Shown one piece after another: positions 1 to 39,379 of a stretch of DNA of 64,000 nt. Position numbers and translations under genes: made by a program. The notes under the pieces were generated by a model. It was not told the DNA's origin. It did no database searches and worked only from the letters and a program-made list of their open reading frames with translations. The stretch covers positions 813 through 64,812 of the forward strand of contig CAYMFW010000002.1 of NCBI GenBank assembly GCA_964389785.1, given 5' to 3'. Numbering within the stretch: position 1 is the stretch's first letter; every line of letters starts with the position of its first letter. The DNA is from an uncultured Planctomycetota bacterium. Its GTDB lineage: Bacteria; Planctomycetota; CAYMFW01.

Positions 1-307
1 TGTCGTCTCGCAGAAGGATCTCGCGGCCGGTTACGGCAAGCGTGGCCGACGTGACGCCGGGAGGTAGAACCACGTTGACGTATCGCGCCGGCGTCCAGGG
101 CGTGCCCGGAGTGTCCTCGGGCAGGCAGCCGTCTTTGAGACGGACCGTCTCGAAGCCCTTGAGCGAACCGAAAGAGAGGTCCTTCTGCTCGAAGGTGAAC
201 CTGGACCGGATCTCCCCCGCGCCGGCGATGCCGGCGCACAGAAGAACCGCGCCGAGCGCCAGCTCCAGCGACGCGCATCTCAACAGAGATGGTCTTTCTC
301 CTCCCAT
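1..307 (-). CDS. secreted protein, N-terminal portion (gene runs off the left edge of the window)
   Basis: The minus-strand frame from ATG 307-305 (alternative TTG 283-281) stays open to position 1. It reads MGGERPSLLRCASLELALGAVLLCAGIAGAGEIRSRFTFEQKDLSFGSLKGFETVRLKDGCLPEDTPGTPWTPARYVNVVLPPGVTSATLAVTGREILLRDD. The N-terminus looks like a signal peptide. The ORF is missing from the track only because it is truncated. Resemblance to C25/gingipain-type propeptide N-termini is weak and unverified. Confidence 0.5.
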   Translation of the reverse strand, partial: MGGERPSLLRCASLELALGAVLLCAGIAGAGEIRSRFTFEQKDLSFGSLKGFETVRLKDGCLPEDTPGTPWTPARYVNVVLPPGVTSATLAVTGREILLRDD

Positions 308-785
308 TGCATCCCCGAGCACAGGTGGCCGGTCAGGTACTCCTTCGCTTGCCTTCTTACCGCCTCGTCGATGCGCAACTCACATGTGTCTTGTTCTTGA
401 ATTATACCGGCGAAAAGAAGGATGTCAAGGGGGAGGGGGAGCATAGGATCCAGAGGTGAGAGCAATGGAAAGGTATTCCCTTATGTGGGAATGAGTTATG
501 TCCTTGAATCAGGTATTATGTTCCTGCAATCCATAAAGTGGCTGAGACCGGGGGAGGGCGAGATTCGACATTTAATCGCGTTCATCATGGCTGTTGTTCC
601 CGCCGTGTTTCTTGTCCGTGTGTACCGTAATCCAAAAGGTAAGATCAGGTTGGCTATAGACGACGATGTTCGCTCGGGGAGGGCGGGGTGAAGTCGCCCC
701 TACAGAGATAAGTTATCTGTCCCCGGATTAACTTCTACTTGTCAATAGGAAAGTTCCTTTTACTAAGGTCGTCGCAGGACGGGAC

Positions 786-1029
786 GCCTCCAAGAGCCCA
801 TTTCAATCATCCGCATTTGAATATCTTACCTTCGTAGCAGGAGTCGGACAAGGATTTTCATGGCGGGAGGCGACACCCGGGGGCATTGCGGCAGAATCAG
901 CGCAATTTCGGCATGGTCAAGGCGTGGCCCCATACCCCATCTCATCAGGCGGCGAGTGCCCCAGCGTCTTCGACGGCTCCTCCTCGAGCAGGCCAAGATG
1001 ATTGAGGATGCGAAATATCACGTCTTTGT
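786..1029 (-). mobile_element. relic of the 3' end of an IS91-family (Y2 HUH) transposase gene plus downstream repeat R1 (copy A)
   Basis: Minus-strand translation of 1045-934 gives DRAILHKDVIFRILNHLGLLEEEPSKTLGHSPPDEMG. This matches my memory of the C-terminal tail of IS91-family transposases (..VIxKILxHLGL....P....HSPP). It is truncated upstream, stops follow, and there is no intact ORF. Segment 786-933 is repeated at 2279-2426. Confidence 0.4.
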
Positions 1030-1134
1030 GTAGAATAGCCCTATCATGAAAAGAGCGATATCGGCCCTCATCCTCTCCCTAGCTTCTTCCCTCCTCCTCA
1101 CCACCTCCGTACTCGCGGACGTCACCCTCTATGT
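1030..1134 (+). repeat. repeat R2 copy A: -10 box plus start codon plus signal-peptide coding segment of the beta-helix gene family, truncated
   Basis: gtagaatagccctatcATGaaaagagcgatatcggccctc...ctcctcctcaccacctccgtactcgcggacgtcaccctctatgt aligns with 6669-6762 and 2576-2666. It encodes MKRAISALILSLASSLLLTTSVLADVTLYV, after which homology ends abruptly. Confidence 0.85.
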
Positions 1135-1402
1135 TCATCATGATCTCGCCCCTGGTGGGCGTGCCGGGCTCCGATATCCTGTTCGCGTCATTCCAGTACC
1201 GTACCGCGCTGGCGACAGGTATCGTCCCTCTCGCGCTGGTCGTGCTGCAGGTGGTGGGCGGGGCGATCGGCAACATGGTGTGCGTCAATAGCATTGTAGC
1301 CATTTCCGCAACCGTGGGCCTGGAAGGCAAGGCCGGAGCTACTCCATCCTGGTCGCGCTCGTGGTGGTAGCTCTCACCGGATTTGGTTTGCTTACCGGCT
1401 GA
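1131..1402 (+). pseudogene. L-lactate/glycolate permease (LctP family) 3' fragment, frameshifted
   Basis: The translation ..PLVGVPGSDILFASFQYRTALATGIVPLALVVLQVVGGAIGNMVCVNSIVAISATVGLEGKAG matches the conserved C-terminal region of LctP permeases. The last TM helix (YSILVALVVVALTGFGLLTG*) continues in another frame after ~1335. About 85% of the gene is missing upstream, and the fragment abuts R2 copy A. Confidence 0.6.
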
Positions 1403-1417
1403 CAAAGGAGGCCTCTT

Positions 1418-2239
1418 ATGGCAGGAACAATTCATTTGACTGTACAGGCCGATGACTTCGGCATGCACCCGGCCGTCAACGAAGGCATCGTCGATTCGTT
1501 CGTGCACGGCCTGCTGACCGACGCCAATGTGATGACTCCGTGCGAAGGCTTCGAGGACGCGGTCAAGCTCGCCAGGCAGCACGATCTTCCGGTCGGCCTG
1601 CACTCGACGCTTTCCTGCGACTTCGACCGATTTCGCTGGGGGCCGGTTACGGAGATGAAGACGCTTGTTGACGAGGCCGGATACTTCGTGCAGGAAAAAG
1701 CGATTTGGGAGCATGCCGACATCGACGAGGCACGCCGGGAACAGGACGCGCAGTATCAGATGCTGGCGGATACCGATCTTCCGATCACCCACATCAGCGA
1801 GCACATGGGCGTGGACGACGGAGGGAAGTTCTTTCAGATACAGGCGGAGCTGGCGGACCGGACCGGTATTCCGCACCGGCTGGTGTCCAATCCTCTTTTC
1901 AGGGATAGACCGGTTCTTCAGTACAGCTTTGACGGCAACGTGCGCGTCAGCAACAAGGGCCCCGACTTCGAAACGCGCAAGGCTCGCCTGAAGGAGCTGC
2001 TGTTCGCGCTCGAATCCGGCGGATACTACATATGGATAGTGCACCCGGCGGCGGACAGCGACGTGCTGGACACGTTCCAGACGCCGGGAACCGCCATGTG
2101 CGTGTGGGCGCGCCTGTACCGGGTGCTCGACTTGAAGCTTCTCCTGGACGCCGAAGTGAAGGAGTGGATCGAGCAGCTCAACATAGAGCTGACGCCGGTC
2201 TCGCAGGTGCCCTACGCGAAGGCGCCGAAGAAGTTCTAG
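1418..2239 (+). CDS. YdjC/ChbG-family carbohydrate deacetylase
   Basis: 273-aa ORF with AAAGGAGG 8 nt upstream. The N-terminal LTVQADDFGMHPAVNEGI and the ..HSTL.., ..HISEHMG.. motifs are typical of the YdjC family. Confidence 0.8.
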   Translation: MAGTIHLTVQADDFGMHPAVNEGIVDSFVHGLLTDANVMTPCEGFEDAVKLARQHDLPVGLHSTLSCDFDRFRWGPVTEMKTLVDEAGYFVQEKAIWEHADIDEARREQDAQYQMLADTDLPITHISEHMGVDDGGKFFQIQAELADRTGIPHRLVSNPLFRDRPVLQYSFDGNVRVSNKGPDFETRKARLKELLFALESGGYYIWIVHPAADSDVLDTFQTPGTAMCVWARLYRVLDLKLLLDAEVKEWIEQLNIELTPVSQVPYAKAPKKF

Positions 2240-2278
2240 ACCACCAGGAATCTCCTTTTTCTGAGGTCCCCGCGAGAG

Positions 2279-2426
2279 GCCTCCGAAAGCCCATTTCGAT
2301 CATCCGCATGTGATTATCGTACCTCCACCACGACAGCCCGGCAAGAATTTCCGCGGCGGGGAGTGACACCCAGGGTCGAGACGGCCGAATCAGTGCGATT
2401 TCGGCATGGTCAAGGCGTGGCCCCAT
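2279..2426 (-). repeat. repeat R1 copy B (same sequence as the tail of the IS91-like relic)
   Basis: Roughly three-quarters identical by eye to 786-933. Shared strings include gcccatttc(g/a)atcatccgcat and aatcag(t/c)gc(g/a)atttcggcatggtcaaggcgtggccccat. As in copy A, it lies ~100 nt upstream of an R2 copy. Confidence 0.7.
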
Positions 2427-2527
2427 TGTCCGCGGGAGCGATGCGAATCAGTTTCTCCCGACGTCCATAGCAGCATGCATCAGTTCCGTCCCCTCGCCGG
2501 GATCGAGATCATATGTCAAGAAGAGAG

Positions 2528-2666
2528 AACGCCGGCCCCCGCGACACCCCCACCTTGCCTCCTCACCCCCATCCCGTAGAATAGACCCGTCATAAAACGA
2601 GCGATATCGGCCCTCTGCCTCCCCCTCCTCCTCGCCACCTCCGTACTCGCAGACGTCACCATCTAT
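2528..2666 (+). repeat. repeat R2 copy B: intact promoter, start codon mutated (ATG to ATA), signal-peptide segment, truncated
   Basis: aacgccggcccccgcgacacccccaccttgcctcctcacccccatcccgtagaatagacccgtcatAaaacgagcgatatcgg... is near-identical to 6620-6762. Homology ends at ..gtcaccatctat. Confidence 0.85.
2555..2582 (+). promoter_or_regulatory. sigma70-like promoter inside R2 copy B (TTGCCT-16-TAGAAT), pointing into the aldolase operon
   Basis: -35 TTGCCT at 2555-2560 and -10 TAGAAT at 2577-2582. A second perfect TATAAT lies at 2768-2773, closer to the aldolase start. Confidence 0.45.
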
Positions 2667-2808
2667 ACTGATCCGCGCCATGGAGAAGATGGCGCGTGCG
2701 GACGGCTGCGCGGCGCTCCACATGGGCGTCAAGAACCGCTCGGGTAGTTTACGGAGAACACGTGCGGTATAATCCCGCGACACACATGGAAGAGGCAGAT
2801 AACGGACC

Positions 2809-3705
2809 ATGGCACACGCGACGCTGGAGGCAATCCGGACGGCGGAGCTGGTCGGCAGGGCGCTGAAAGCCGGAACGGTCGTTCCCGGCTTCAACATTCC
2901 GTACCTTCCCATGATGGAACCGGTGGTCCGGGCGCTGCGAGACACGCACAGCTTCGGGTTCATCATGGTCGCCCGGCTGGAATGGATGAAGTTCGAATCG
3001 GGGAGCCTGGAAAAGGTCCGCGACGAGTACGAGCGGGTAAAGGACCTCGATCACACGCGCCTCCATCTCGATCACGTGCCCGTGATCGATGAAGACGACG
3101 TGAGAGTGGATTACCAGGATGTCCTGCGGCGCGCCGTCGAGGCGGGTTACGATTCGATCATGATCGACGGCTCACGCCTGCCGCTCGAGGAGAATATCGA
3201 CTGCACGAAGCGCGCCGTGGAGATAGCCCGCTCCGCCGGCATCCCCGTCGAGGCGGAGCTCGGCGCGGTGATGGGTCACGAGACCGGTCCCCTTCCCCCC
3301 TACGACCAGCTCTTTGCGTCGGGCAGGGGGTTCAGCGATCCGGACGAGGCGAGACGCTTCGTGGAAGAGACAAACGTCGACTGGCTTTCCGTCGCCATCG
3401 GGAACGTTCACGGGGCGATATCGGCCGCCCGCAAGAACGAGAAGAAGATCGAGGCCCGGCTGGACATCGGCCGCCTCGATGAGATCCGGGCGGCGATCGA
3501 CGTCCCCCTGGTCCTGCACGGCGGCACCGGAATCGCCAGGAAGTACATCCTGGAATCGATCCGGCACGGCATCGCCAAGGTGAACGTGGCAACGGCGATC
3601 CGCCAGCCGTACGAAAGAGAAGGGCTGCAGGCGGTCTACCCGGCGATGCTCGCCGTGATCCGCGAGGACCTGCAGATCGAGAATAGCGCGGAGCTTCTGA
3701 AGTAG
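2809..3705 (+). CDS. class II ketose/fructose-bisphosphate aldolase family protein
   Basis: Motifs LHLDHVP, YDSIMIDGS, EAELG, GNVHGA and LVLHGGTG are the hallmark metal and substrate motifs of class II FBP/tagatose-BP aldolases. Confidence 0.85.
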   Translation: MAHATLEAIRTAELVGRALKAGTVVPGFNIPYLPMMEPVVRALRDTHSFGFIMVARLEWMKFESGSLEKVRDEYERVKDLDHTRLHLDHVPVIDEDDVRVDYQDVLRRAVEAGYDSIMIDGSRLPLEENIDCTKRAVEIARSAGIPVEAELGAVMGHETGPLPPYDQLFASGRGFSDPDEARRFVEETNVDWLSVAIGNVHGAISAARKNEKKIEARLDIGRLDEIRAAIDVPLVLHGGTGIARKYILESIRHGIAKVNVATAIRQPYEREGLQAVYPAMLAVIREDLQIENSAELLK

Positions 3706-3718
3706 GAGGATATACGAG

Positions 3719-5119
3719 ATGAACGAGACGACTTTTGCATTGTATTTCGGCAACCGCGGCTTCTTTCCCGAGTCGCTCATCGCCGGCGCGCGCAGGGAGA
3801 TGGTCGAGGCGCTGGAGAAGCTCGGGCACGGCACGCTGATCATGGACGAAGACGCGACCCCCCACGGCGCCGTCGAGACCCCGGCGGAGGGCGCGAAATA
3901 CGCGCGCTTCCTGGAGGCCCACCGGGGGGAGTACGACGGGGTGATCCTGTGCCTGCCGAATTTCGGCGACGAGACCGGCGCCATCTGCGCGCTCCGGGAC
4001 GCCGGCGTTCCGATCATGATACAGGCCTATCCCGACGAGCCGGACAGGATGGGATTCAGCACCAGGCGCGACGCGTTCTGCGGCAAGTTTTCGGTAATGG
4101 ACGTCTTCTGTCAGTACGGCTTGCCGTTCACCACGTTCAAGCCCCACACGGTGCACCCCGCCGGCGAGACCTTCGCCCGGCATGTCGGCCAGTTTGCCGC
4201 GGTCTGCCGGGTGGTCAACGGAATGAAGAGAATGACCGTCGGCGCCGTCGGCGCCCGCACGACGGCGTTCAAGACCGTTCGCTTCGACGAGCTCACGCTC
4301 CAGCGGTACGGCATCACGACGGAAACGCTGGACCTGTCGGAAGTGATATCCCGCGTACGGGACCTGAACGCGGACGGCGACGAGTGCCGCGCGAAAGCCG
4401 AACGCCTGAGGAATTACACCCGTTGGGACGGCGTGCCGGATGAAGCGTTCGCGACCCTCACGAAGCTTTCGGTGGTGCTCGACGAGCTCATCGCCGAGCA
4501 CGGCATGGACGCGATGGCCCTACGCTGCTGGCTCGAGCTGGAAAAGGAGCTGAAGGTCTCGCCCTGCGTGCTGCTGAGCGAACTCAACGATCGCGGTATC
4601 CCGGCGGCGTGCGAGCTCGACGTGTGCAACGCGGTGGCGATGCATTCGCTTTCGCTCGCGTCGGAAAGGGCCGCCACGTGCCTGGACTGGAACAACAACT
4701 ACGGGGACGACGACGACAAGTGCATCCTCTTCCACTGCGGGCCCGTTCCCCAGAGCCTGATGGCCGGGAAGGGGACGATCATCGAGCACCCGATGTTCGC
4801 CAAGGCGCTCGGCGCCGGGTGCGCGTACGGCTGCAACGCCGGGCGCATCGCACCCTGCCCGCTGACGTTCGCGAGCTCGAAGACGCAGGACGGTGCGCTG
4901 ACGTTCTATCTCGGAGAAGGCGAATTCACGGGCGACGCGATCGCGGACGATTTCTTCGGCTGCGCCGGCGTCGCACGGATCGACAACCTGCAGGACAAGC
5001 TGGAGACGATCGGGCATCAGGGCTACCGGCATCACGTAAGCGTCACGGCGGGTCACGTGGCGGTTCCCGTCCGCGAGGCGTGGGAACGCTATCTCGGCTA
5101 CAAGATCTGCGAGCTATGA
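3719..5119 (+). CDS. L-fucose/L-arabinose isomerase-family sugar isomerase
   Basis: 466 aa with GGAGGA RBS. The N-terminus is FALYFGNRGFFPESL.., followed by ..GVILCLPNFGDE.. and ACELDVCNAVAMH, typical of the fucose-isomerase-like family. The stop overlaps the kinase start (ATGA). Confidence 0.7.
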   Translation: MNETTFALYFGNRGFFPESLIAGARREMVEALEKLGHGTLIMDEDATPHGAVETPAEGAKYARFLEAHRGEYDGVILCLPNFGDETGAICALRDAGVPIMIQAYPDEPDRMGFSTRRDAFCGKFSVMDVFCQYGLPFTTFKPHTVHPAGETFARHVGQFAAVCRVVNGMKRMTVGAVGARTTAFKTVRFDELTLQRYGITTETLDLSEVISRVRDLNADGDECRAKAERLRNYTRWDGVPDEAFATLTKLSVVLDELIAEHGMDAMALRCWLELEKELKVSPCVLLSELNDRGIPAACELDVCNAVAMHSLSLASERAATCLDWNNNYGDDDDKCILFHCGPVPQSLMAGKGTIIEHPMFAKALGAGCAYGCNAGRIAPCPLTFASSKTQDGALTFYLGEGEFTGDAIADDFFGCAGVARIDNLQDKLETIGHQGYRHHVSVTAGHVAVPVREAWERYLGYKICEL

Positions 5120-6600
5120 GCCTGCTCGGCGTAGACGTCGGGACGGCGGGATGCAAGGCGGCCGCATTCTCCGAGGACGGCACCTGCATCGCCCGGGCCT
5201 ACCGCGAGTACGCGACCCTGCACCCGGCCGAAGGTCGGTCGGAGCTCGACAGCGCGGAGGTCTGGGAAAAAACGCACGCGGTGATTTCCGAAGCGGCCGC
5301 CGGGGCGGCACGCGATCCGGTGACGGCGCTGTGCGTCAGCGCGATGGGGGAAGCCGCCACCCCGCTGTCCGCCGACCGGCGAATACTCGGCAACTGCATC
5401 CTCTCGAGCGATACGCGGGGGAGAGAGCACGTCGCCATGCTGGAGAAACGGTACGGGCAGAAGCGGTTCTACGAGATCAACCCGAACATCCTGGCGACCA
5501 ACTACACCCTCCCGAAGATACTCTGGCTGCGTGAGAATGCCCCCGATCTCTACGAACGGACGGACGTGTTTCTGCTCTGGGACGGGCTCGCGGGGTTCAT
5601 GCTGGGGTGCGACCCGTTCACCGGCTATTCCGAGGCCAACCGCACCCTGCTCTTCGACATGCCGGGCCGGGACTGGTCCGACGAGCTTCTCGGGACCGCG
5701 GGAATCGACCGCGCAAAGCTTCCACGCTGTCTGCCGGGCGGCGCGATAGCGGGAACGGTCGGCGATGCCGCTGCGGACGACATGGGTCTGCCGCGGGGCG
5801 TGAAGGTGGTGGTCGGCGGGCACGACCAGTGCTGCAACGCGCTCGGGGCCGGCCTGTCCCGACCGGGCAGGGCCGTGGACGGCATCGGCACGTTCGAATG
5901 CATCACCCCTGTCTACGACCGCGTTCCGCCGGCACACGCCATGCTGCAGCAGGGGCTCAACGTGGAGCACCACGTCGTCCCCGGGCTGTACGTATCGTTC
6001 CTGTACAATCAGGCCGGGTTGCTCGTACGCTGGTTCCGGGACACGTTCGCGAAGGAGCGCCGTGACGAGGAAGACATCTACGATCGGCTGGCCTCCGAGA
6101 TGCCGGCCGATCCGACTCGCCTGTTCGTACTGCCGTATTTCGAGATGACCGGTTCGCCGCGTTTTGTCAGCGACGCATCGGGCGTTATAACCGGCCTGAA
6201 GACGCACACCACGCGCGGAGATATCCTGAAGGCGATCATGGAGAGCGTGACGTACTATTTCGCGGAGAGCATCGAGTCGCTGCGCGGGATCGGCATCGAC
6301 ACCTCGGAATTCGTCGCGACCGGAGGCGGCGCCACGTCCGATCCGTGGCTGCAGATCAAGGCGGACATACTCGGCGTTCCCATCGTCAGGCCGCGTATCA
6401 CCGAGTGCGGGCTCCTGGGCGCCGCGCTCCTTGCCGGTGCCGCCACCGGCGTGTTCGACTCCCTCGACGAGGGCGTCGGGCGCTTCGTGCGGCACGAAAG
6501 AGTATTCGAACCTGACCGCACACGCCATTCGATCTACCGCGAGCGGCTGGAGAAGTACCGCGGGCTTTTCCCCCTGATGCGAGACTACCTCAGCGGATAG
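5116..6600 (+). CDS. FGGY-family carbohydrate kinase (xylulokinase-like)
   Basis: In-frame ATG at 5116 gives MSLLGVDVGTAGCKAAAF..; ..TLPKILWLRENAPDLY.. and ..ATGGGATSDPWLQIKADILGVPI.. are FGGY signatures. The track ORF starting at 4609 is over-extended. Confidence 0.85.
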   Translation: MSLLGVDVGTAGCKAAAFSEDGTCIARAYREYATLHPAEGRSELDSAEVWEKTHAVISEAAAGAARDPVTALCVSAMGEAATPLSADRRILGNCILSSDTRGREHVAMLEKRYGQKRFYEINPNILATNYTLPKILWLRENAPDLYERTDVFLLWDGLAGFMLGCDPFTGYSEANRTLLFDMPGRDWSDELLGTAGIDRAKLPRCLPGGAIAGTVGDAAADDMGLPRGVKVVVGGHDQCCNALGAGLSRPGRAVDGIGTFECITPVYDRVPPAHAMLQQGLNVEHHVVPGLYVSFLYNQAGLLVRWFRDTFAKERRDEEDIYDRLASEMPADPTRLFVLPYFEMTGSPRFVSDASGVITGLKTHTTRGDILKAIMESVTYYFAESIESLRGIGIDTSEFVATGGGATSDPWLQIKADILGVPIVRPRITECGLLGAALLAGAATGVFDSLDEGVGRFVRHERVFEPDRTRHSIYRERLEKYRGLFPLMRDYLSG

Positions 6601-6619
6601 GCTCCGGACGACGTGCCCG

Positions 6620-6762
6620 AACGCCGGCCCCCGCGACACCCCCGCCTTGCCTCCTCACCCCCATCCCCGTAGAATAGACCCGTCATGAAACGAGCGATAT
6701 GGGCCCTCTGCCTCACCCTCCTCCTCACCACCTCCGTACTCGCGGACGTCACCCTCTATGTG
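6620..6762 (+). repeat. repeat R2 copy C: the functional promoter, start and signal peptide of the beta-helix gene
   Basis: Master copy of the cassette found at 1030-1134 and 2528-2666. Confidence 0.85.
6647..6675 (+). promoter_or_regulatory. sigma70-like promoter TTGCCT-17-TAGAAT, 9 nt upstream of the ATG (near-leaderless)
   Basis: -35 at 6647-6652, -10 at 6670-6675, ATG at 6685. No Shine-Dalgarno sequence fits in between. Confidence 0.5.
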
Positions 6763-9411
6763 TCGCCGAAAGGCGACGATGCCGGCCTCGGCACACCCAA
6801 GAAGCCGTTCAAGACGATCACCCGCGCGCAGAAGGCCGTCCGGGACATCACGAAGGGCGCGCCGCCGACGGAGGCGATCATCGTCTACCTGGGCCGCGGG
6901 ACGTTCTCGATCGACAAGCCGCTCGTATTCACGCCGGAGGATTCGGGCGCGAAGGACTTCCCCATCCTCTGGCGGGCGTGGAAGAGAGAAAAGGTGGTGA
7001 TAAGCGGCGGCAGGGAGATCACCGGCTGGGAGAAGGGGTCCGGGAAACTGTGGCAGACGACGGTGCCGGAGGTGAAGGAAGGGAAGCTCTATTTTGACTC
7101 GCTCTTCGTCAACGGCCGGCGGGCGGTGCGCGCGCGCACGCCCAATAAAGGATACCTGTATTCGGCCGGACCCCTGGCGCGGGTCGCCCCGAAGCACGGC
7201 ACCGTGAGGGAAGACGACGAGACGATGTTCGGGTTCCGCTTCACGCCGGGAGACATCACGCAGTGGGACAACCTGCAGGACGTGATGGTGACGTTCTACC
7301 ACACGTGGCTGGCGAGCCTGCACTGGGTGAAGGAGGTGGACGTGCGAAAGAACATCGTCCGCTTCAGGGAGTCGGTGCGCAAGCAGCTCGCGCTGGAGAA
7401 TCCCATGAGCCGGTACACGGTGGAGAACTACTTCGAGGCGCTGGACGCGCCCGGGGAATGGTACCTGAACCGGAAGACCGGCGTGCTGAGCTACTACCCG
7501 AGAGACGGCGAAGACATGAGCAAGGCAGTGGCGATCGCGCCGGTGGTCGATTCGCTTCTGCGCATCGAGGGAGATCCCGAAAAGGGCGCGTTCGTGAACT
7601 ACCTGAAATTCTACGGGCTGACGTTCCACTACTCCGACCTCCAGGGGGACGGGACCTACATCCATCGGAGGGGAAACTATTCCATGCAGGCGTTCGCCCA
7701 CATGGACATCGCCGGCATCCGGGCGCGGGGAGCGCGGCACGTGGAGATCGAGAACTGCGAGGTGGCGCACCTGGGAAGCCACGGCATCTGGCTCGAGGAG
7801 GGCTCCAGGTTCTGCACGGTGAGGCGCTGCCACATCCACGATCTGGCGGGCGGCGGCGTCTATATCGGAAACGGCCAGTATCAGTACAAGGCCCCGAACG
7901 ACAACGTGACGACGAGTCACCACACGGTCGACAACTGCTTCATCCACGACCTGTGTCACGTGTATCACGGGTCGGTGGGCGTGTGGATAGGATGCAGCTC
8001 GGACAATACCGTAACGCGGAATGAAATCAGCGACATGGATTACACCGGCATATCCGTCGGCTTTACCTGGCGGAGCTGGGACGTGGATCAGAAGAGGAAT
8101 ATGATCGGGCTCAATCACATCCATCACCTGATGAACGGCGTGCTTTCCGACGGCGGAGGAGTATATACCCTGGGGGATTCCCGGGGCACGAAGATATCGA
8201 ACAACCTGATCCACGATATCGTCCCCTACCCCCACCACAGCTACGGTATCGGGCTGTACCAGGACCAGGCGTCCGCGGACATCGTGCTGGAGAACAACAT
8301 CGTGTACAACGTGGCGCCCAGAGGATTCGGCTATCATCTGCATTACGGGGAGAGGAATACGGTACGCAACAACATATTCGCGTTCGTGGACGGCAAGGCG
8401 ATCAACCGGACGAAGAAGTTTGCGAGGGAGAACGAGCCGATTACGGTTGACGGGAATATCGTGTACGCGTCCAATGAAATGCATCCGTTCATCGGCGGTG
8501 ACGGGTTCCTGCCCGGCAAGGTGCGGTGCGAGCGTAACGTGTATTTCAACACGAAGGGCTATGTGGACTTCCGGGACGAGAATAACAAGAAGATAGGGTT
8601 CGATGAATGGCAGAAGCTGGGGTACGACGCGAGCGGTGCGGTGGCGGACCCGCTGTTCAAGGATGCCGCGAAGGGAGATTTCACTCTGGATGCGAAGTCT
8701 CCGGCGGTGGCGAAATTCTTCAGGCCGATAGACGTGGGGGCGATCGGGCTTCGTGGAGACGAGGAGTGGACGGGGCTGCCGGGGAAGGTGAAGCGGCAGC
8801 CGGTGTATCTGCCGCCGCGCAACGCGTTGACGGGGATGCTTCTGGACTTCGAGAACCAGGAGCCGGGGGATTTTCCGCTCTACTGCCGGATCTCGGACGA
8901 CGCCACGCGCACGGTCGTCGTGGCGGAAGGCGGCGCGGAGGGGAGTAAGCGCTGTCTGAAGTTCAGCGACGCGAAGGGCAAGCCGAGCTGGAAGCCACAC
9001 GTGTGGAATCGCGTGCATATCGAGAAGGGGCGGGTGAGGTTTTCCTTCCATATAAGGAACGACGAGAAGAAGCCGGCGAGGATTCTTATTTCGTTCCGGG
9101 ACTGGCGCACCCGGCTCATCACCGGGCCGAGCGTGGAGGTGACCCGCGGTAATATCGTGAAAGCCGGGGGCAAGAACTGCGGCATCATTCCGGGAGGAGC
9201 GTGGGGGAAGATCGATATGGATTTCACGCTGGGCGAACGCGAGCTGAAGACGTTTACGCTCCGGGTGACGACGGCCACGATGTCGACGATCACCAGCGAT
9301 CTGCCCTTCGAGGACAAGGACTTCGAAGTCGCCACCTGGTACGGCTTCGTCTCGGCGCCCGACGAAGAGGCGTACTGGTGGCTGGACAGGGTGAGGTTGG
9401 GAGAGAAATAG
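6685..9411 (+). CDS. secreted right-handed parallel beta-helix repeat protein (pectate-lyase-fold, likely glycan-active)
   Basis: 908 aa with signal peptide MKRAIWALCLTLLLTTSVLADV. LYVSPKGDDAGLGTPKKPFKTITRAQ is the typical N-terminus of beta-helix proteins. Repeated ..G(I/V)(Y/W)(I/L)... turns with NN(I/L)(I/V)(H/Y)D(I/V) motifs follow. Confidence 0.75.
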   Translation: MKRAIWALCLTLLLTTSVLADVTLYVSPKGDDAGLGTPKKPFKTITRAQKAVRDITKGAPPTEAIIVYLGRGTFSIDKPLVFTPEDSGAKDFPILWRAWKREKVVISGGREITGWEKGSGKLWQTTVPEVKEGKLYFDSLFVNGRRAVRARTPNKGYLYSAGPLARVAPKHGTVREDDETMFGFRFTPGDITQWDNLQDVMVTFYHTWLASLHWVKEVDVRKNIVRFRESVRKQLALENPMSRYTVENYFEALDAPGEWYLNRKTGVLSYYPRDGEDMSKAVAIAPVVDSLLRIEGDPEKGAFVNYLKFYGLTFHYSDLQGDGTYIHRRGNYSMQAFAHMDIAGIRARGARHVEIENCEVAHLGSHGIWLEEGSRFCTVRRCHIHDLAGGGVYIGNGQYQYKAPNDNVTTSHHTVDNCFIHDLCHVYHGSVGVWIGCSSDNTVTRNEISDMDYTGISVGFTWRSWDVDQKRNMIGLNHIHHLMNGVLSDGGGVYTLGDSRGTKISNNLIHDIVPYPHHSYGIGLYQDQASADIVLENNIVYNVAPRGFGYHLHYGERNTVRNNIFAFVDGKAINRTKKFARENEPITVDGNIVYASNEMHPFIGGDGFLPGKVRCERNVYFNTKGYVDFRDENNKKIGFDEWQKLGYDASGAVADPLFKDAAKGDFTLDAKSPAVAKFFRPIDVGAIGLRGDEEWTGLPGKVKRQPVYLPPRNALTGMLLDFENQEPGDFPLYCRISDDATRTVVVAEGGAEGSKRCLKFSDAKGKPSWKPHVWNRVHIEKGRVRFSFHIRNDEKKPARILISFRDWRTRLITGPSVEVTRGNIVKAGGKNCGIIPGGAWGKIDMDFTLGERELKTFTLRVTTATMSTITSDLPFEDKDFEVATWYGFVSAPDEEAYWWLDRVRLGEK

Positions 9412-9485
9412 ACCATGAACGACCTTGTTATCACACTCCGCCGGGGCGACGTGCTGGAATTGCAGGCTGTCCTGAAACCGGAATA

Positions 9486-10007
9486 ATGGCCGGCGAAGAA
9501 CCCAAACGCCGGCCAGTCGGCCCCATCGTCATCCTCGCCATGATTGCCGTCGGCATCGCGCTTTTCTGGCCCAAGAGAACTACCTGGTTCGTTGTGCACC
9601 AGTACCCGGCCGGCGTGGTGGAGGAGTGGCGTCATGAAGCGGAGAAGAAGGTCGTGTGGAAAGGCACTATCCGGCAGCTCGGTCACGAGGAGTTTGCTGT
9701 CGCGCCCTGGAACACCGAGATCGAAAACAACGCGGCGGTGACACAGTGCTACTATGTCTACTACGAAGAACGATACACGGACTTCTTCGGCAAACTGTAT
9801 TCCGGAATGCCCTCCGGTTCTTCAGGAAGCCACCGGCTGTTTGTGGCGACGCAGGGAGAGCGGCTGCTGCTGGCGAGCTACGACCTCACCCTCGACAAGA
9901 AGAGGGATATACGATCGTACGTCCACGTTGACAACGAGAACCTAGCGACTATATTGAGATTCGTGTCCGGAATACATAAAGAGAAAGCCCGGTTGGGAAC
10001 GGAGTAA
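9486..10007 (+). CDS. hypothetical membrane-anchored protein
   Basis: In-frame ATG at 9486 gives MAGEEPKRRPVGPIVILAMIAVGIALFWPK.., a single N-terminal TM helix. I recognise no family. Confidence 0.45.
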   Translation: MAGEEPKRRPVGPIVILAMIAVGIALFWPKRTTWFVVHQYPAGVVEEWRHEAEKKVVWKGTIRQLGHEEFAVAPWNTEIENNAAVTQCYYVYYEERYTDFFGKLYSGMPSGSSGSHRLFVATQGERLLLASYDLTLDKKRDIRSYVHVDNENLATILRFVSGIHKEKARLGTE

Positions 10008-22610: not shown

Positions 22611-22805
22611 GTCCACCTCCGCTCTGTTTCACGGATTTCGCGAAGATGTCATTATAGCAGAATCATGTGCGAAGGTTGCGGCCCGAGAACGGATAGACGC
22701 TTCACTCCGTCTTCGGCGTTGTCGGCGCGTCGAGAAACACCATGGCATCCGCGTGTAAAGGGGAAGCAAAAGCGGTACAATGGCTTTCAGAGAAGGGACC
22801 CAAAC

Positions 22806-22952
22806 ATGAAGAGCGTCATACTCGTCGGCGACTCGATCCGCATGGGATACCAGGGAAAGGTGCGCGAACAGCTCGCGGGCCGGGCGGGGACAAGGAGCGG
22901 GAATTCTCGGGGTGCCGGTGCGACATTGACAACGATTCCCGGTGGATTATAG
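22806..22952 (+). pseudogene. truncated 5' duplicate of the SGNH hydrolase gene (first 27 codons conserved, then divergent 48-aa ORF)
   Basis: MKSVILVGDSIRMGYQGKVREQLAGRA.. versus MKTIALVGDSIRMGYQGKVREQLAGRA.. at 25209. Nucleotides 22826-22887 match 25229-25290 with a single mismatch. It retains its own TACAAT -10 (22778-22783) and RBS. Confidence 0.75.
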
Positions 22953-22960
22953 TACCTCCG

Positions 22961-25198
22961 ATGTGCTCGATGAGACTGATGCTGCTCCCGGTGACGATCG
23001 CTCTCACCTGTTCCGTCTGCGCCGTCGCGGAGGCCGGCGGCGGCCCGGACGAGCCGATCAACAGGTGGGTGAAAAAGACCAAGGCCCCCAATCACGTGCA
23101 CGAAAACGACATGGCCTACGACCCGTCGACCGGAAGAGTTGTGTTCTACGGCGCGCACGTGGGCATGCTCTACCCGCAGAGCAACTACACGTTTCTCTAC
23201 GACGTCCGACGGAACCGGTTCTTCGAGTCTCAATCCCAATACCGTCCCCAGCGGCGGTGTTTCGTCAACACGGTGTATCTCGACTCCTGCCGGCTGACCC
23301 TCACCGGCTGCGGCAGTCCCGGGCACGGGTCGCTCCCCGAAGGCGGCTTCCGGAAGGATCAGGGGAACTACAAGGTCTGCTACCGGCGCTTCAACGTGGG
23401 ACCGTGGCTGTACGACGGCGTGGACGACAGCTGGAGCCACTGCCGGACCCTGCCTCCCCGCTGGCGCAACAAGGACGTCTCCACCCTGGTCTACGAGCGC
23501 AACAGCGACGCGATGCTCTACAACGAGGGCGACAAGTGGGCCGTCTACTGCCCGCGGACGAACCGGGTGACCATGCGGTGGCTGCCCGAGTCGCTGTGGT
23601 CGTTGTGCGGCTACGCGGTGGCGTCCGACCCGGTCCGCCGGAAGATCGTGCTGTTCGGCGGGCTGAACGGCTTCAGTTTTCCCCGCACACAGGAAGCGTA
23701 CGACAAGCGCATGAACCGGGACACCTGGATATACGACATCGCCACGGACACGTGGCGGAAAGTCGAGACCAAGAACGGCCCGCAGCCGGGCTACCCGATG
23801 CTCGCGGTGATGAGCCTGAAGATGGTATATCACCCCCCCACCGACAGCATGCTGATGCTGCAGAACCCGGTGAGCGCGCCGCCCGCGAACACGACCGACA
23901 TACCGCCCACCGAGCTGTGGAGCTTCGCGCTGGATAAGGAACGGTGGGCGAAGGTGCCGATGGAGAAGGGAAGCGAGATGCCGTCGTATCTCGGCCTGCT
24001 GGATTACGCCCGGAACGAGGACCTGCTGGTCCTTATCGGCGGCGGCAGGGACACGATGGGACGAAACGGCCAGCCCAGTATTTCCGGGAGCCGGACGGTG
24101 TGGACCTGCCGGGTGCGGATTCCGGACCGGAAGCCGGTGCGGCCGGCGCTGCCGGGGCGGATCCGGGTCGAGACCGGCGGCGAGGGCAACCGGGTGGTCT
24201 GGGACAGCGGCGTGATGGCCGGCTACGACGTGTTCCGCGCGAAGGCCCCCGGGCTGTCCGGAAAGACGACCGCCATGTACTCGGCCGACGCGCCGTTCAA
24301 CAGGGCCGCCCTCGCGCCGCCCCAGCTTCCGGCGCACCTGGCGACGACGCCCCAGAAGCCCCGCACCAACTGGTGGGGACCGGACGCCGACCCGTGCCCG
24401 GGCGTCTACAAGAGAATCAACGAGAAGCCGGTGAAAGCGGGCTGGTACATGGACAAGGACATAGAACCCGGCGCGGTGTACGCGTATCAGGTGCTGCCGA
24501 ACATGGCGCCCCTCGACATGGCGCGGTCGCTGCCTGCGTTCAACCAGCCGTGGCACCCGGTGAGGCTGAGGGCCTCGGTGGAGTCCGCGAAAAAGGTGGT
24601 ACTCCGCTGGAGGGCGAACGAGGAGAAGGACCTGGCCGGCTACAGGGCGTACCGGGCGATCGGCGAACAGATCGAGCGCGGCACCGGCACGCTGATGACG
24701 AAGGAGCCGATCGGGACGACGGAGTTCACCGACACCTCGGACGACCTGTCCGACGGGGTGGTCCGGTTCTACTGGGTGACGGCGGTCAACAGGGGAGGAA
24801 TCGAGAGCGGGGCGTCGCCGCTGGCGCACAGCTTCCCCGACGCGCCCGCCGGGCTCACCATCGTGCCGGGCGAGGGCCCGAGCAACAGGGACGGTATCCT
24901 GCTGGGCTACCGGGTGCGCTGGGAGTGGCCGCGCGACGTGAAGGTGGCCGGCTTCCACGTGTACTACGCGGATACGCACCGCAACGGCTCGAACGGACCC
25001 GGCGGCACGTACGATAAGGACTGGAAGCGGATCACCGAGACGCCGGTGACGGACAACGAATACGTCTTCCCGCTGGCCGCGGACGACCCGCGGCCCAACC
25101 ATTACTTCCACGTGCGGGCGGTGAACGTACTGGACCAGCAGGGCTTCTACTCCGACATCGTCAGCCCGACGGACCTGCGCTTCCGGGCGACGCCGTGA
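22961..25198 (+). CDS. secreted Kelch-type beta-propeller protein with three Fn3-like domains
   Basis: In-frame ATG at 22961 gives MCSMRLMLLPVTIALTCSVCAVAEA (signal peptide). Repeated ..V(L/V)FGG.., ..W.YD...D.W.. Kelch-like blades follow, then ..LRWRANEEKDLAGYRAYRA.. and ..VAGFHVYYAD.. Fn3-like modules. Confidence 0.65.
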   Translation: MCSMRLMLLPVTIALTCSVCAVAEAGGGPDEPINRWVKKTKAPNHVHENDMAYDPSTGRVVFYGAHVGMLYPQSNYTFLYDVRRNRFFESQSQYRPQRRCFVNTVYLDSCRLTLTGCGSPGHGSLPEGGFRKDQGNYKVCYRRFNVGPWLYDGVDDSWSHCRTLPPRWRNKDVSTLVYERNSDAMLYNEGDKWAVYCPRTNRVTMRWLPESLWSLCGYAVASDPVRRKIVLFGGLNGFSFPRTQEAYDKRMNRDTWIYDIATDTWRKVETKNGPQPGYPMLAVMSLKMVYHPPTDSMLMLQNPVSAPPANTTDIPPTELWSFALDKERWAKVPMEKGSEMPSYLGLLDYARNEDLLVLIGGGRDTMGRNGQPSISGSRTVWTCRVRIPDRKPVRPALPGRIRVETGGEGNRVVWDSGVMAGYDVFRAKAPGLSGKTTAMYSADAPFNRAALAPPQLPAHLATTPQKPRTNWWGPDADPCPGVYKRINEKPVKAGWYMDKDIEPGAVYAYQVLPNMAPLDMARSLPAFNQPWHPVRLRASVESAKKVVLRWRANEEKDLAGYRAYRAIGEQIERGTGTLMTKEPIGTTEFTDTSDDLSDGVVRFYWVTAVNRGGIESGASPLAHSFPDAPAGLTIVPGEGPSNRDGILLGYRVRWEWPRDVKVAGFHVYYADTHRNGSNGPGGTYDKDWKRITETPVTDNEYVFPLAADDPRPNHYFHVRAVNVLDQQGFYSDIVSPTDLRFRATP

Positions 25199-25208
25199 GG
25201 AGCGGAAC

Positions 25209-25784
25209 ATGAAGACCATCGCACTCGTCGGCGATTCGATCCGCATGGGATACCAGGGAAAGGTGCGCGAACAGCTCGCGGGCCGGGCGGACGTGTGGGG
25301 GCCGGAGCAGAACGGGGGCACCAGCGAGAACGTGCTGGCGCACCTGGAGGAATGGGCGCTCTCCCGGGGGCCGGACGTGCTTCATATCAACTGCGGCCTC
25401 CACGATCTCAAGAAGGAATTCGGCGAGGATGCCGCGGCGGTCCCGCTCGACGCGTACAGGGAAAACGTTCGCTCCATTCTGACACGGCTGAAGGACGGGA
25501 CCGAGGCGACCGCGATATGGGCGCTCACCACCCCGGTCAATTTCGAGAACCATCACAGGAACAAGGATTTCGACCGGTTCGAAGAGGACGTGGTCGCGTA
25601 CAACGAGGCCGCCTCGGAGGTCTGCCGGGAGCTGGGCGTGGCGGTGAACGACCTGTATTCCGCGGTCGTCGAGGCGGGCCCAGACCGCATCCTGCTGAAA
25701 GACGGGGTGCACTTCACGCCCGAAGGGTACGATATACTCGGCGAGCGCGTCGCTGAGTGTGTGGGATCGGCGCTGGAGGGATAG
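25209..25784 (+). CDS. SGNH/GDSL-family hydrolase
   Basis: 191 aa with block I GDSIRMG, block III-like INCGLHD, and block V DGVHFTPEGY (DxxH). Confidence 0.8.
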   Translation: MKTIALVGDSIRMGYQGKVREQLAGRADVWGPEQNGGTSENVLAHLEEWALSRGPDVLHINCGLHDLKKEFGEDAAAVPLDAYRENVRSILTRLKDGTEATAIWALTTPVNFENHHRNKDFDRFEEDVVAYNEAASEVCRELGVAVNDLYSAVVEAGPDRILLKDGVHFTPEGYDILGERVAECVGSALEG

Positions 25785-30077: not shown

Positions 30078-30230
30078 ACGGATTGTGCCGTATCTGTCTC
30101 CCCACGAACAGAGGAAGGGTACAGTGCTGAGGGGAGAAACACAAGACGCGTGAAAACGTGAGTCACCTTTCCGGGAGATGAACGCAAGATTCGTGATTGT
30201 GTGTCACCTTCGTGGTAGTATTAATGTACT

Positions 30231-39372: not shown

Positions 39373-39379
39373 AGCGCAT

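What the first reader, a model, noticed from the sequence alone, without database searches (positions are those of the whole stretch)
1030..6762. A promoter plus start codon plus signal-peptide cassette (R2) is present three times, once in front of each transcription unit of the first 9 kb
The copies lie at 1030-1134, 2528-2666 and 6620-6762. They share the -10 box TAGAAT, the start region and about 30 codons of signal peptide (MKRAI.AL.L.L.....LLTTSVLADVT(L/I)Y).

Only copy C continues into an intact gene, the beta-helix protein. Copy B keeps the full TTGCCT-16-TAGAAT promoter but has ATG mutated to ATA, and it ends 143 nt before the aldolase/isomerase/kinase operon. Copy A keeps the -10 and the ATG but is fused to a dead lactate-permease fragment upstream of the YdjC-like gene.

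The pattern suggests a portable promoter that has been copied, or retained after deletions of paralogs, so that three neighbouring units could be co-regulated. Duplication of a gene START rather than a whole gene is unusual. It recurs at 22806/25209 in this window.
Basis: seen in the sequence. Interest (0 to 1): 0.65.

Follow-up and report, generated by a model that had tools for sequence, protein, structure and literature searches.

The report
Reused promoter and signal-peptide gene start
A roughly 100-140 base gene start (promoter, start codon and export signal) of a sugar-degrading enzyme gene is a real repeat found at least nine times in this uncultured salt-marsh bacterium, mostly as dead stubs in front of unrelated genes; this looks like natural promoter reuse, but no transcript data could be found to test it.

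Summary
R2 occurs at 1030-1134 (A), 2527-2666 (B) and 6619-6761 (C). Only C starts an intact gene, a GH141-like beta-helix protein. B has ATG changed to ATA. A is joined out of frame to the last ~80 codons of a lactate permease.

R2 is not confined to this window. Contigs from the same salt-marsh population carry at least six more copies of its 5' half (TTGCCW-16/17-TAGAAT, 9 nt, ATG, MKRAI.AL.L). These contigs are co-abundant with the window and include JGI contig L084. Four of the five fully read copies are dead stubs just upstream of unrelated genes (YdjC, an aldolase-isomerase-kinase operon, an ankyrin protein, a membrane protein). All of those genes except the aldolase have a recognisable Shine-Dalgarno-like sequence of their own.

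The -35 and -10 boxes are kept wherever that region is present. There is no Shine-Dalgarno sequence, and the -10 lies 9 nt from the ATG, which is a leaderless-type layout.

R2 has no terminal inverted repeats, no hairpin and no Rfam match, and no recombinase lies nearby. A and C are identical over 46 nt, which indicates gene conversion. In a related strain the kinase/R2-C junction is a synteny breakpoint.

Best reading: promoter reuse or capture through local rearrangement and recombination, not a transposon. Transcription is untested. It is a new member of a known kind, of moderate interest.

The parts
755..933 (+). U_A: upstream repeat, 76-77% identical to U_B; lies ~100 nt 5' of R2-A
   Evidence: (D7)
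1030..1134 (+). R2 copy A: -10 TAGAAT 1031-1036, ATG 1046, 29 signal-peptide codons with a 12-nt insertion; no -35 box. Positions 1089-1134 are identical to 6716-6761.
1135..1403 (+). Dead 3' fragment of a lactate permease gene (Pfam model positions 422-498 of 522), out of frame with R2-A. By my reading it is frameshifted near 1340, with the original stop at 1401-1403, 14 nt before the YdjC ATG.
   Evidence: for the Pfam match; one search read by eye for the frameshift and stop; a relative with an intact permease ending 14 nt before its YdjC gene:
1418..2239 (+). YdjC-like (ChbG-type) carbohydrate deacetylase gene with its own Shine-Dalgarno sequence AAGGAGG
2240..2426 (+). U_B: upstream repeat starting 1 nt after the YdjC stop codon. 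Its first ~50 nt also occur in L084 at 1680-1730.
2383..2470 (.). Short element that is highly repeated in the source metagenome (summed depth 108-145 at 2416-2459, against 8.9 for single-copy sequence); nature unknown
   Evidence: no significant fold; no Rfam match
2527..2666 (+). R2 copy B: -35 TTGCCT 2555-2560, -10 TAGAAT 2577-2582, start codon mutated to ATA at 2592; dead signal-peptide stub
2667..2808 (+). 142 nt of unknown origin between R2-B and the aldolase gene; contains TATAAT at 2768-2773; no Pfam match in two frames
2809..6600 (+). Sugar-catabolic triad: class II aldolase 2809-3705, fucose-isomerase-like gene 3719-5119, FGGY kinase 5116-6600. This block is conserved as a unit in many phyla.
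6619..6761 (+). R2 copy C, the working copy: -35 TTGCCT 6647-6652, -10 TAGAAT 6670-6675, ATG 6685, signal peptide MKRAIWALCLTLLLTTSVLA/DVTLY
6685..9411 (+). GH141-like right-handed beta-helix protein, 908 aa, presumably secreted
22796..22887 (+). Second case: dead 27-codon stub of the GDSL/SGNH hydrolase gene start, 91% identical to 25199-25290. A Kelch/FN3 secreted-protein gene (22964-25198) follows it.
   Evidence: (D13)
25199..25784 (+). Intact GDSL/SGNH hydrolase gene (ATG 25209). The repeat begins directly after the stop codon of the Kelch gene.

Best explanation
R2 is the compact 5' module of a lineage-specific family of gene starts in an uncultured Kiritimatiellales-like bacterium from salt-marsh sediment.

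It has three parts:
- a sigma-70-type promoter, TTGCC(T/A)-16/17-TAGAAT;
- a start codon only 9 nt after the -10 box, with no Shine-Dalgarno sequence, so the mRNA should be leaderless or nearly so;
- about 25 codons of a Sec-type signal peptide.

All of this fits in roughly 110 nt. Any rearrangement whose breakpoint falls just inside such a gene therefore leaves or creates a complete promoter-plus-start stub.

- Copy C is the working start of the GH141-like beta-helix gene.
- Copies B and A are stubs at rearrangement junctions. A is joined to codon ~422 of a lactate permease that is intact in a relative. B is joined to 142 nt of unknown DNA ahead of the aldolase-isomerase-kinase block.
- The stubs have decayed as coding sequence but keep the promoter boxes. 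B most likely transcribes the sugar-catabolic operon, and perhaps reads through into the beta-helix gene. A may contribute to YdjC expression.

This is promoter capture or reuse. The copies recombine with each other, as shown by a gene-conversion tract between A and C and by family copies at synteny breakpoints between strains. That recombination keeps them alike and shuffles the gene blocks between them.

What is shown: the repeats, their anatomy, their multiplicity, their gene contexts, the mosaic identity pattern, the ancestral permease-YdjC pair, and the strain-specific junction.

What is inferred: promoter activity, leaderless initiation, and which rearrangement type (deletion, duplication or insertion) made each stub.
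For: Repeats and anatomy:
- The three copies and their boundaries.

A family beyond the window:
- Logan contigs of the source run hold the 5' half of R2 on at least four further contigs, giving at least six more copies. Their depths are 5-8x, against 8.5-8.9x for the window.
- JGI contig L084 is 100% identical to one of those contigs and is co-abundant with the window in four runs.
- L084 carries two copies. Each is a dead 21-29-codon stub placed ahead of an unrelated gene, an ankyrin-repeat protein and a 171-aa membrane protein.

Conservation:
- GTAGAAT is invariant in 5 of 5 copies and CCTTGCC in 4 of 4 copies that have that region.
- By contrast, the 9 nt between the -10 box and the ATG vary at about 6 of 9 positions.
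- Pairwise identity of the core is 80-87%, except for B-C at 94-95%.

Leaderless-type layout:
- TAGWAT-N9-ATG occurs 4 times in the window against 0.07 expected. Two of the four are at unrelated gene starts, 30231 and 39380.
- Other genes here have clear Shine-Dalgarno sequences.

Recombination between copies:
- A and C differ at 8 of 51 positions in the 5' half but at 0 of 46 in the 3' half (Fisher p = 0.006).

Origin of the junctions:
- A relative whose YdjC is 81% identical has a lactate permease gene ending 14 nt before its YdjC gene, the same spacing as in the window.
- The aldolase-isomerase-kinase triad travels as a block in many phyla. In none of 80 related loci was a close relative of the window's YdjC or a beta-helix gene found within 10 kb; the single weak YdjC-like match (30%, L030) lies about 8 kb away on the opposite strand.
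- In a related strain (kinase ~96% identical), homology stops at the kinase stop codon. A 16-nt remnant of the R2 -10 region follows. That strain's R2 plus beta-helix start has a different upstream sequence.
- The closest beta-helix ortholog (78% identical) shares only the L-T-x-SVLAD(I/V)(S/T)LYV segment of the signal peptide. Its upstream DNA and the first part of its signal peptide are different.

Precedent:
- Putative mobile promoters (PMC3575422).
- Promoter capture by deletion or tandem duplication (PMC6614815).
Against: - There is no transcript evidence at all.
- The promoter call rests on consensus similarity of 9 of 12 positions in a phylum whose promoters are uncharacterised.
- A has no -35 box, and a terminator-like hairpin at 1362-1379 lies between A and the YdjC gene.
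- The aldolase gene has a TATAAT of its own at 2768-2773, so B may be redundant.
- The +4 to +24 block (AAA.GAGCGATAT.GGCCCTC) is conserved as strongly as the promoter boxes, even in dead stubs. A pure promoter model does not explain this. Gene conversion could explain all the conservation without any function.
- Copy counts come from short k = 31 contigs of a metagenome. Assigning them to the same genome rests on co-abundance only.
Confidence: 0.55

Rival explanations
1. Silent debris. A and B, and the stubs in L084, are neutral 5' remnants of R2-headed paralogs removed by deletions. They look conserved only because they are young or are homogenised by gene conversion, and they drive nothing.
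For: - B has lost its ATG and shows 5 non-synonymous changes against 1 synonymous change relative to C.
- A is fused out of frame to a permease pseudogene.
- After its last matching codon, B reads IYTDPRHGEDGA. This weakly resembles the beta-helix N-terminal motif YVSPKGDDAG, as expected for a truncated paralog.
- A gene-conversion tract links A and C.
- Downstream genes mostly have their own starts with Shine-Dalgarno-like sequences; the aldolase gene instead has its own TATAAT box.
Against: - Most copies are 13-20% diverged from each other, so they are not young, yet they keep the -10 box in 5 of 5 copies and the -35 box in 4 of 4.
- All five stand co-oriented and 0-285 nt upstream of an intact gene.
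- Compact bacterial genomes usually lose useless DNA.
- B differs from C at 1 of 65 positions upstream of the start codon but at 6 of 75 after it. This is a trend only.
Confidence: 0.25
2. Cassette-type system. R2 is a recombination site at which gene blocks are inserted or exchanged by a dedicated recombinase, as with integron attC sites or other site-specific systems. That would give arrays of R2-block-R2-block.
For: - Copies occur in same-orientation arrays separated by 1.3-4-kb gene blocks in the window, in L084 and in another Logan contig.
- Repeats begin 0-18 nt after the stop codon of the preceding gene.
- A and B end within 2 nt of each other.
- Family copies sit at a synteny breakpoint between strains.
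Against: - R2 has no inverted repeats, and its folding is weaker than that of shuffled sequence on both strands.
- No integrase or transposase was found among the roughly 30 window genes scanned.
- The junctions cut through genes (the permease fragment), as expected for illegitimate or homologous recombination rather than site-specific recombination.
Confidence: 0.07
3. Leader-peptide or upstream-ORF element. The conserved ATG AAA CGA GCG ATA .GG CCC TC block is translated as a short leaderless upstream ORF, and its termination next to the downstream start couples or regulates translation of that gene.
For: - The ATG is kept in 4 of 5 copies, and the +4 to +24 block is nearly invariant even in dead stubs.
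- In L084 the two stub ORFs stop 4 nt and 3 nt before the start codons of the next genes.
Against: - In the window, A's ORF stops 127 nt before the YdjC start.
- B has no start codon, and its frame stops 63 nt before the aldolase start.
- The peptides after about codon 10 are unrelated.
Confidence: 0.08
4. Assembly artefact. The repeats or their order result from mis-joining of strain variants in a metagenome assembly.
For: k = 31 Logan contigs cannot bridge the 46-nt tract shared exactly by A and C. The alternative pairing (A's left flank with the beta-helix gene, C's left flank with the permease fragment) is therefore not excluded by those data.
Against: - All other junctions are reproduced by independent contigs at even depth, 6-9x.
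- One 4313-nt Logan contig spans R2-B, the operon and the 5' part of R2-C.
- Either pairing leaves three copies, of which one is intact.
Confidence: 0.03

Closest known systems
Putative mobile promoters and promoter reuse in prokaryotes (Matus-Garcia, Nijveen and van Passel 2012; commentary PMC3575422)
   Same: Highly similar upstream sequences (at least 80% identical over at least 50 nt) stand in front of unrelated genes within one genome. They have no link to a known mobile element, and how they spread is unknown.
   Different: R2 extends through the start codon into a signal peptide. That survey deliberately filtered out pairs whose adjacent coding sequences were also similar, which would probably remove such cases. 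R2 is also leaderless in layout and occurs in local arrays.
Promoter capture by deletion or tandem duplication (E. coli Cit+ rnk-citT, as cited in PMC3575422; experimental cases in PMC6614815)
   Same: A stub made of a neighbour's promoter plus its first codons is joined to a gene fragment ahead of the captured gene or genes, while an intact copy of the donor gene remains nearby. The breakpoints lie inside genes.
   Different: Here the events are old, at 6-20% divergence. No second copy of the captured genes remains. The same module recurs at several loci.
Promoter-bearing miniature elements (Correia, ERIC, REPIN), as listed in PMC3575422
   Same: They are short dispersed intergenic repeats that can supply promoters and sometimes overlap ORFs.
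   Different: R2 has no terminal inverted repeats, no target-site duplication and no stable hairpin.
Conserved 5' expression regions of variable surface-protein families, such as Mycoplasma vsp/vlp/vsa and the Borrelia upstream homology box (from my own knowledge)
   Same: The promoter, start codon and signal-peptide coding region are conserved at the DNA level among many genes, and recombination among the copies takes place.
   Different: In those systems the downstream genes are paralogous surface antigens and the system serves phase or antigenic variation. Here the downstream genes are unrelated metabolic and other genes, and most copies are dead stubs.
Leaderless bacterial mRNAs (from my own knowledge: common in Actinobacteria and Deinococcus)
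   Same: [quoted passage not shown]
   Different: A 9-nt gap is at the long end for a true leaderless start. No transcription-start data exist for this lineage.

Membership tests
Putative mobile promoter (PMP) family | At least 80% identity over at least 50 nt between upstream regions of genes in the same genome | tested here: met
   B-C are 94% identical over 141 nt. The other pairs are 80-87% identical over 50 nt measured from the -10 box to codon 10, and pairs not involving A are 83-87% over the full 78-79-nt core (pairs with A are about 70% over that span, because A lacks the -35 segment). Assignment to the same genome is inferred from co-abundance.
Putative mobile promoter (PMP) family | The downstream coding sequences are not homologous | tested here: met
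   The downstream genes are YdjC, a class II aldolase operon, a GH141-like beta-helix protein, an ankyrin-repeat protein and an unknown membrane protein.
Putative mobile promoter (PMP) family | Actual promoter activity | not testable with these tools
   No RNA run holds the sequence. Only consensus matches are available.
Sigma-70-type promoter | -35 and -10 hexamers separated by 16-18 nt | tested here: met
   B has TTGCCT-16-TAGAAT and C has TTGCCT-17-TAGAAT, each matching 9 of 12 positions. The L084 copies have TTGCCA-17-TAGAAT. Copy A does not meet this feature: it has a -10 box only.
Leaderless mRNA gene start | Transcription starts at or within a few nucleotides of the start codon, with no Shine-Dalgarno sequence | tested here: inconclusive
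   The gap from the -10 box to the ATG is 9 nt and no purine-rich Shine-Dalgarno sequence is present. TAGWAT-N9-ATG is enriched, 4 observed against 0.07 expected. The transcription start site has not been measured.
Sec signal peptide | A positively charged N-terminal region, a hydrophobic core, and a small-residue cleavage motif | tested here: inconclusive
   By inspection only: MKR, then AIWALCLTLLLTTSVLA, then a VLA/D site. The ortholog keeps the SVLAD(I/V)(S/T)LYV segment. No signal-peptide predictor was available.
MITE-like element (Correia, ERIC, REPIN) | Terminal inverted repeats or a stable hairpin | tested here: not met
   No inverted repeats flank any copy. Fold z-scores are +0.6 to +1.6 on both strands.
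Integron attC or gene-cassette site | Imperfect inverted repeats that fold as a single-strand hairpin, with an integrase nearby | tested here: not met
   No hairpin. No integrase was found among the scanned genes.
Known RNA family (riboswitch, leader or small RNA) | A match to an Rfam covariance model | tested here: not met
   Scanning positions 1-10000 at E <= 1 gave only one chance-level snoRNA hit, at 923-977 on the minus strand.
GH141-like beta-helix glycoside hydrolase (the gene headed by copy C) | A right-handed beta-helix plus the GH141 insertion domain | tested here: met
   Pfam Beta_helix E = 4e-22 and GH141_M E = 5e-10. More than 2000 homologues carry the same domains. Enzyme activity was not tested.

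The most novel reading that the evidence does not exclude
R2 is a genuinely portable 'express and export' module. In this reading it is a roughly 70-140-nt unit that spreads among loci by recombination. It gives whatever lies downstream a promoter and a leaderless start. When it lands in frame, it also supplies the N-terminal part of a signal peptide. Its invariant +4 to +24 block would be a cis-acting site, either an operator or a loading site for leaderless ribosomes. That site would tie a set of polysaccharide-degradation genes, including the GH141-like enzyme and the sugar-catabolic triad, into one regulon.
Probability: 0.15. Interest if true: 0.7.

Novelty: new member of a known kind. Interest (0 to 1): 0.42.

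Why it matters
If the stubs fire, this is a natural, multi-copy example of promoter reuse in a little-studied phylum (Kiritimatiellota, part of the PVC group). One compact leaderless promoter would then place a secreted glycosidase and the operon that consumes its sugar product under the same control. The same module would also serve as homology for recombination that reshuffles gene blocks between strains.

It would also provide a first candidate promoter consensus (TTGCCW-17-TAGAAT) and evidence for leaderless genes in this lineage. Both would help annotate start codons in such metagenome-assembled genomes. If the stubs are silent, the finding is ordinary genomic debris.

Tried and rejected
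Searches that found nothing:
- Exact-pattern scans for the R2 3' half (CCACCTCCGTACTCGCNGACGTCACC) gave 0 hits in 185,579 species-representative genomes and 0 hits in JGI metagenome contigs. The organism is not represented there.
- A word-indexed protein search with the 45-residue N-terminus returned no candidates.
- Rfam gave nothing on positions 1-10000.
- No RNA-seq runs hold this DNA.
- An nhmmer profile of the R2 core, run against the 83 loci fetched up to that point (mostly related isomerase loci), found no copies outside the window and the Logan contig that duplicates it.

Hypotheses tested and dropped:
- MITE or attC models. There are no inverted repeats and no structure.
- Tandem duplication with a surviving first copy of YdjC. 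No YdjC remnant lies upstream of U_A; the Smith-Waterman score was no better than for shuffled sequence.
- A sharp common right boundary of the 5' half at codons 8-10. The Logan alignments suggested this, but it weakened once L084 was read. Similarity decays gradually there, and L084-2 keeps traces up to GTCACC.

Unresolved:
- The origin of the 142 nt after R2-B. There was no Pfam match and no tblastn match.
- The fold of the high-copy element at 2370-2480 is not significant.


Full report
**1. Observation**

The three R2 copies are real.
- The repeat finder, MAFFT and a self-BLAST place them at 1030-1134 (A), 2527-2666 (B) and 6619-6761 (C).
- B and C are 94% identical over 141 nt.
- A matches C at 81% with a 12-nt insertion.
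- No other copy lies in the 64-kb window.

Promoter and start codon:
- B and C carry TTGCCT-16/17-TAGAAT. A has only the TAGAAT box.
- In every copy the -10 box is followed by 9 nt and then the start codon: ATG at 1046, ATA at 2592 and ATG at 6685.

What follows each copy:
- Only C runs into an intact gene, a 908-aa GH141-like beta-helix protein.
- A is joined at 1134/1135, out of frame, to the last ~80 codons of a lactate permease (Pfam model positions 422-498 of 522). The YdjC-like gene follows.
- B is followed by 142 nt of unidentifiable DNA. Next come a class II aldolase, a fucose-isomerase-like gene and an FGGY kinase.

It lies about 100 nt upstream of A and B but not of C.

**2. Source and assembly**

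- The DNA comes from a salt-marsh metagenome.
- The nearest relatives of the isomerase are Kiritimatiellales genomes assembled from metagenomes, at 71-75% identity.
- Independent k = 31 contigs of the source run reproduce all junctions at even depth. One 4313-nt contig spans R2-B, the operon and the start of R2-C.
- The exception is a 46-nt tract that is identical in A and C (1089-1134 = 6716-6761). Those contigs cannot bridge it, so the pairing of its flanks has not been independently checked.
- Either pairing leaves three copies with one intact.

**3. R2 is a dispersed family**

- In the source run, the 5' half of R2 (the -35 box to about codon 10) occurs on at least four further contigs, giving at least six more copies. 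Their depths are 5-8x, against 8.5-8.9x for the window.
- The 3' half (TTSVLADVTLY) is found only in A, B and C.
- A pattern scan of JGI metagenome contigs recovered L084. It is 100% identical to one of those contigs and is co-abundant with the window in four runs.

L084 holds two copies:
- The first has TTGCCA-17-TAGAAT-9-ATG and a dead 29-codon ORF. That ORF stops 4 nt before the ATG of an ankyrin-repeat protein, which has its own GGAGG.
- The second starts right after the ankyrin stop codon. Its 21-codon ORF stops 3 nt before the GTG of a 171-aa membrane protein.
- The first ~50 nt of U also lie upstream of the first L084 copy, next to the start of a divergent gene.

Partial views of other copies show two outcomes. 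Some are in-frame fusions that look like good signal peptides, for example MK.AILALLCIFLFATSASA and MKRAIPAVTSCLCIL. Others look like stubs.

So four of the five fully read copies are stubs ahead of unrelated genes.

**4. Conservation pattern**

- Across the five copies, CCTTGCC (the -35 region) and GTAGAAT are invariant wherever they are present.
- The 9 nt between the -10 box and the ATG vary at about six positions.
- The block AAA.GAGCGATAT.GGCCCTC is almost invariant.
- Similarity fades after about codon 10.
- Pairwise identity of the core is 80-87% for all pairs except B-C, which is 94-95%.
- A and C differ at 8 of 51 positions in the 5' half but at 0 of 46 in the 3' half (p = 0.006). This indicates gene conversion between them.
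- B differs from C at 1 of 65 positions upstream of the start and at 6 of 75 after it. Five of those six changes are non-synonymous and include the lost ATG. The coding part is decaying while the promoter part is not, but this is only a trend.

**5. Leaderless-type layout**

- R2 has no Shine-Dalgarno sequence. YdjC, the isomerase and several other genes here have clear ones.
- TAGWAT-N9-ATG occurs four times in the window against 0.07 expected.
- Two of those four are independent gene starts: a 2473-aa Calx-beta protein at 30231 and an esterase at 39380.
- The start of transcription is therefore expected at or within 2-3 nt of the ATG. This is inferred, not measured.

**6. How the stubs arose**

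- A relative whose YdjC is 81% identical has a lactate permease gene ending 14 nt before its YdjC gene. This is the same spacing as the permease remnant's original stop (1401-1403, my reading) and the ATG at 1418 in the window.
- The permease-YdjC pair is therefore ancestral, and the R2-A junction removed the first ~421 codons of the permease.
- The aldolase-isomerase-kinase triad is conserved as a block in Kiritimatiellia, Lentisphaerae, Planctomycetota, Bacteroidales and others. None of the 80 related loci has a beta-helix gene or a close relative of the window's YdjC within 10 kb; one locus (L030) has a weak, 30% YdjC-like match about 8 kb away on the other strand.
- In a related strain (kinase ~96% identical), homology to the window ends at the kinase stop codon. 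A 16-nt remnant of the R2 -10 region (GTAGAATAACCCCGTC) follows, and then unrelated DNA.
- In the same runs, a contig with R2 plus the beta-helix start has a different, AT-rich upstream sequence, with TTAACT 17 nt from the TAGAAT box.
- The closest beta-helix ortholog (78% identical) shares only LTxSVLAD(I/V)(S/T)LYV. Its upstream DNA and the first part of its signal peptide are different.

Together these results place R2-family copies at rearrangement and synteny breakpoints.

I cannot tell whether each stub was made by a deletion that fused an R2-headed gene to downstream DNA, by a duplication, or by an insertion. No remnant of a first YdjC copy is detectable upstream of U_A.

The same architecture recurs at 22796-25784: a stub of the downstream gene's start, then an unrelated gene, then the intact gene. 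There the pieces are a GDSL hydrolase stub, a Kelch/FN3 gene and the intact GDSL hydrolase gene.

**7. What R2 is not**

- There is no Rfam match.
- There are no terminal inverted repeats.
- Folding is weaker than for shuffled sequence on both strands.
- No integrase or transposase was found among the roughly 30 window genes scanned with Pfam.

**8. Interpretation**

The most economical reading is promoter reuse or capture. A compact leaderless promoter, start codon and signal-peptide module is left in front of other genes by local rearrangements. It is kept because it supplies transcription, and recombination between copies keeps the copies alike.

There is precedent for both parts of this reading:
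- Thousands of putative mobile promoter families have been described (PMC3575422).
- Promoter capture by deletion or tandem duplication, with breakpoints inside genes, has been shown experimentally (PMC6614815).

A functional link is plausible. From my own knowledge, the founding GH141 enzyme is a fucosidase. The isomerase-kinase-aldolase triad has the form of a fucose-type catabolic pathway. A shared promoter type would therefore make biological sense.

Weak points:
- There are no transcript data.
- A lacks a -35 box and is followed by a terminator-like hairpin.
- The aldolase gene has its own TATAAT.
- The promoter model does not explain the invariant +4 to +24 block.

**9. Verdict**

- R2 is a new member of a known kind (putative mobile or captured promoters). 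Its unusual feature is that the unit includes a leaderless start and a signal peptide.
- Interest is about 0.4.

Noticed in passing
window 755-933 and 2240-2426; L084 1680-1730: A second repeat, U, lies about 100-150 nt upstream of R2 copies A and B and of the first L084 copy. On the minus strand its 5' end reads like the ribosome-binding region of a divergent gene (AAAGGAGATTCC). A whole divergent intergenic region therefore seems to have been duplicated. Another U copy sits on a 712-nt Logan contig.
   Followed up: partly
window 2383-2470: This short stretch has a summed contig depth of 108-145 in the source run, against 8.9 for single-copy sequence, so it is a high-copy short element of unknown nature. 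It has no significant fold and no Rfam match.
   Followed up: partly
window 22796-25784: The same stub-insert-intact architecture occurs here. A 27-codon dead copy of the GDSL/SGNH hydrolase start is 91% identical to the real start. A Kelch/FN3 secreted-protein gene follows, and then the intact hydrolase. The repeat begins directly after the Kelch gene's stop codon.
   Followed up: partly
window 30216-30233 and 39365-39382: TAGTAT or TAGAAT lies exactly 9 nt before the ATG of a 2473-aa Calx-beta protein and of an esterase, with no Shine-Dalgarno sequence. This suggests that leaderless or near-leaderless starts are a regular feature of this genome.
   Followed up: partly
L084 1865-1961 and 3145-3216: The dead R2-initiated ORFs stop 4 nt and 3 nt before the start codons of the next genes. 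This could be translational coupling, or it could be chance.
   Followed up: partly
window 31607-35629 and 36450-37084: Twelve tandem 339-nt (113-aa) repeats, 60-76% identical, lie inside the 2473-aa Calx-beta, Peptidase_C39-like protein (30231-37652). Aspartate-rich short repeats follow them.
   Followed up: no
window 401-428, minus strand: A perfect consensus promoter, TTGACA-16-TATAAT (12 of 12), lies upstream of a signal-peptide-bearing gene that runs off the left end of the window. It sits in an unusually AT-rich 300-nt stretch (430-750).
   Followed up: no
window 1135-1403: By my reading of the sequence, the lactate permease remnant has a frameshift near 1340 and its original stop at 1401-1403, 14 nt before the YdjC ATG. 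A relative (JGI sample 3300042731) has the intact pair with the same 14-nt spacing.
   Followed up: yes
window 6596-6620 versus runs X7 and X9: In a related strain (~96% identical) the kinase ends ...GGGCAGGAGGTAGAATAA. Its last codons therefore overlap a 16-nt remnant of the R2 -10 region. Homology to the window stops there.
   Followed up: partly
window 5116-5119: The isomerase stop and the kinase start overlap as ATGA. This is typical of translationally coupled operon genes.
   Followed up: no
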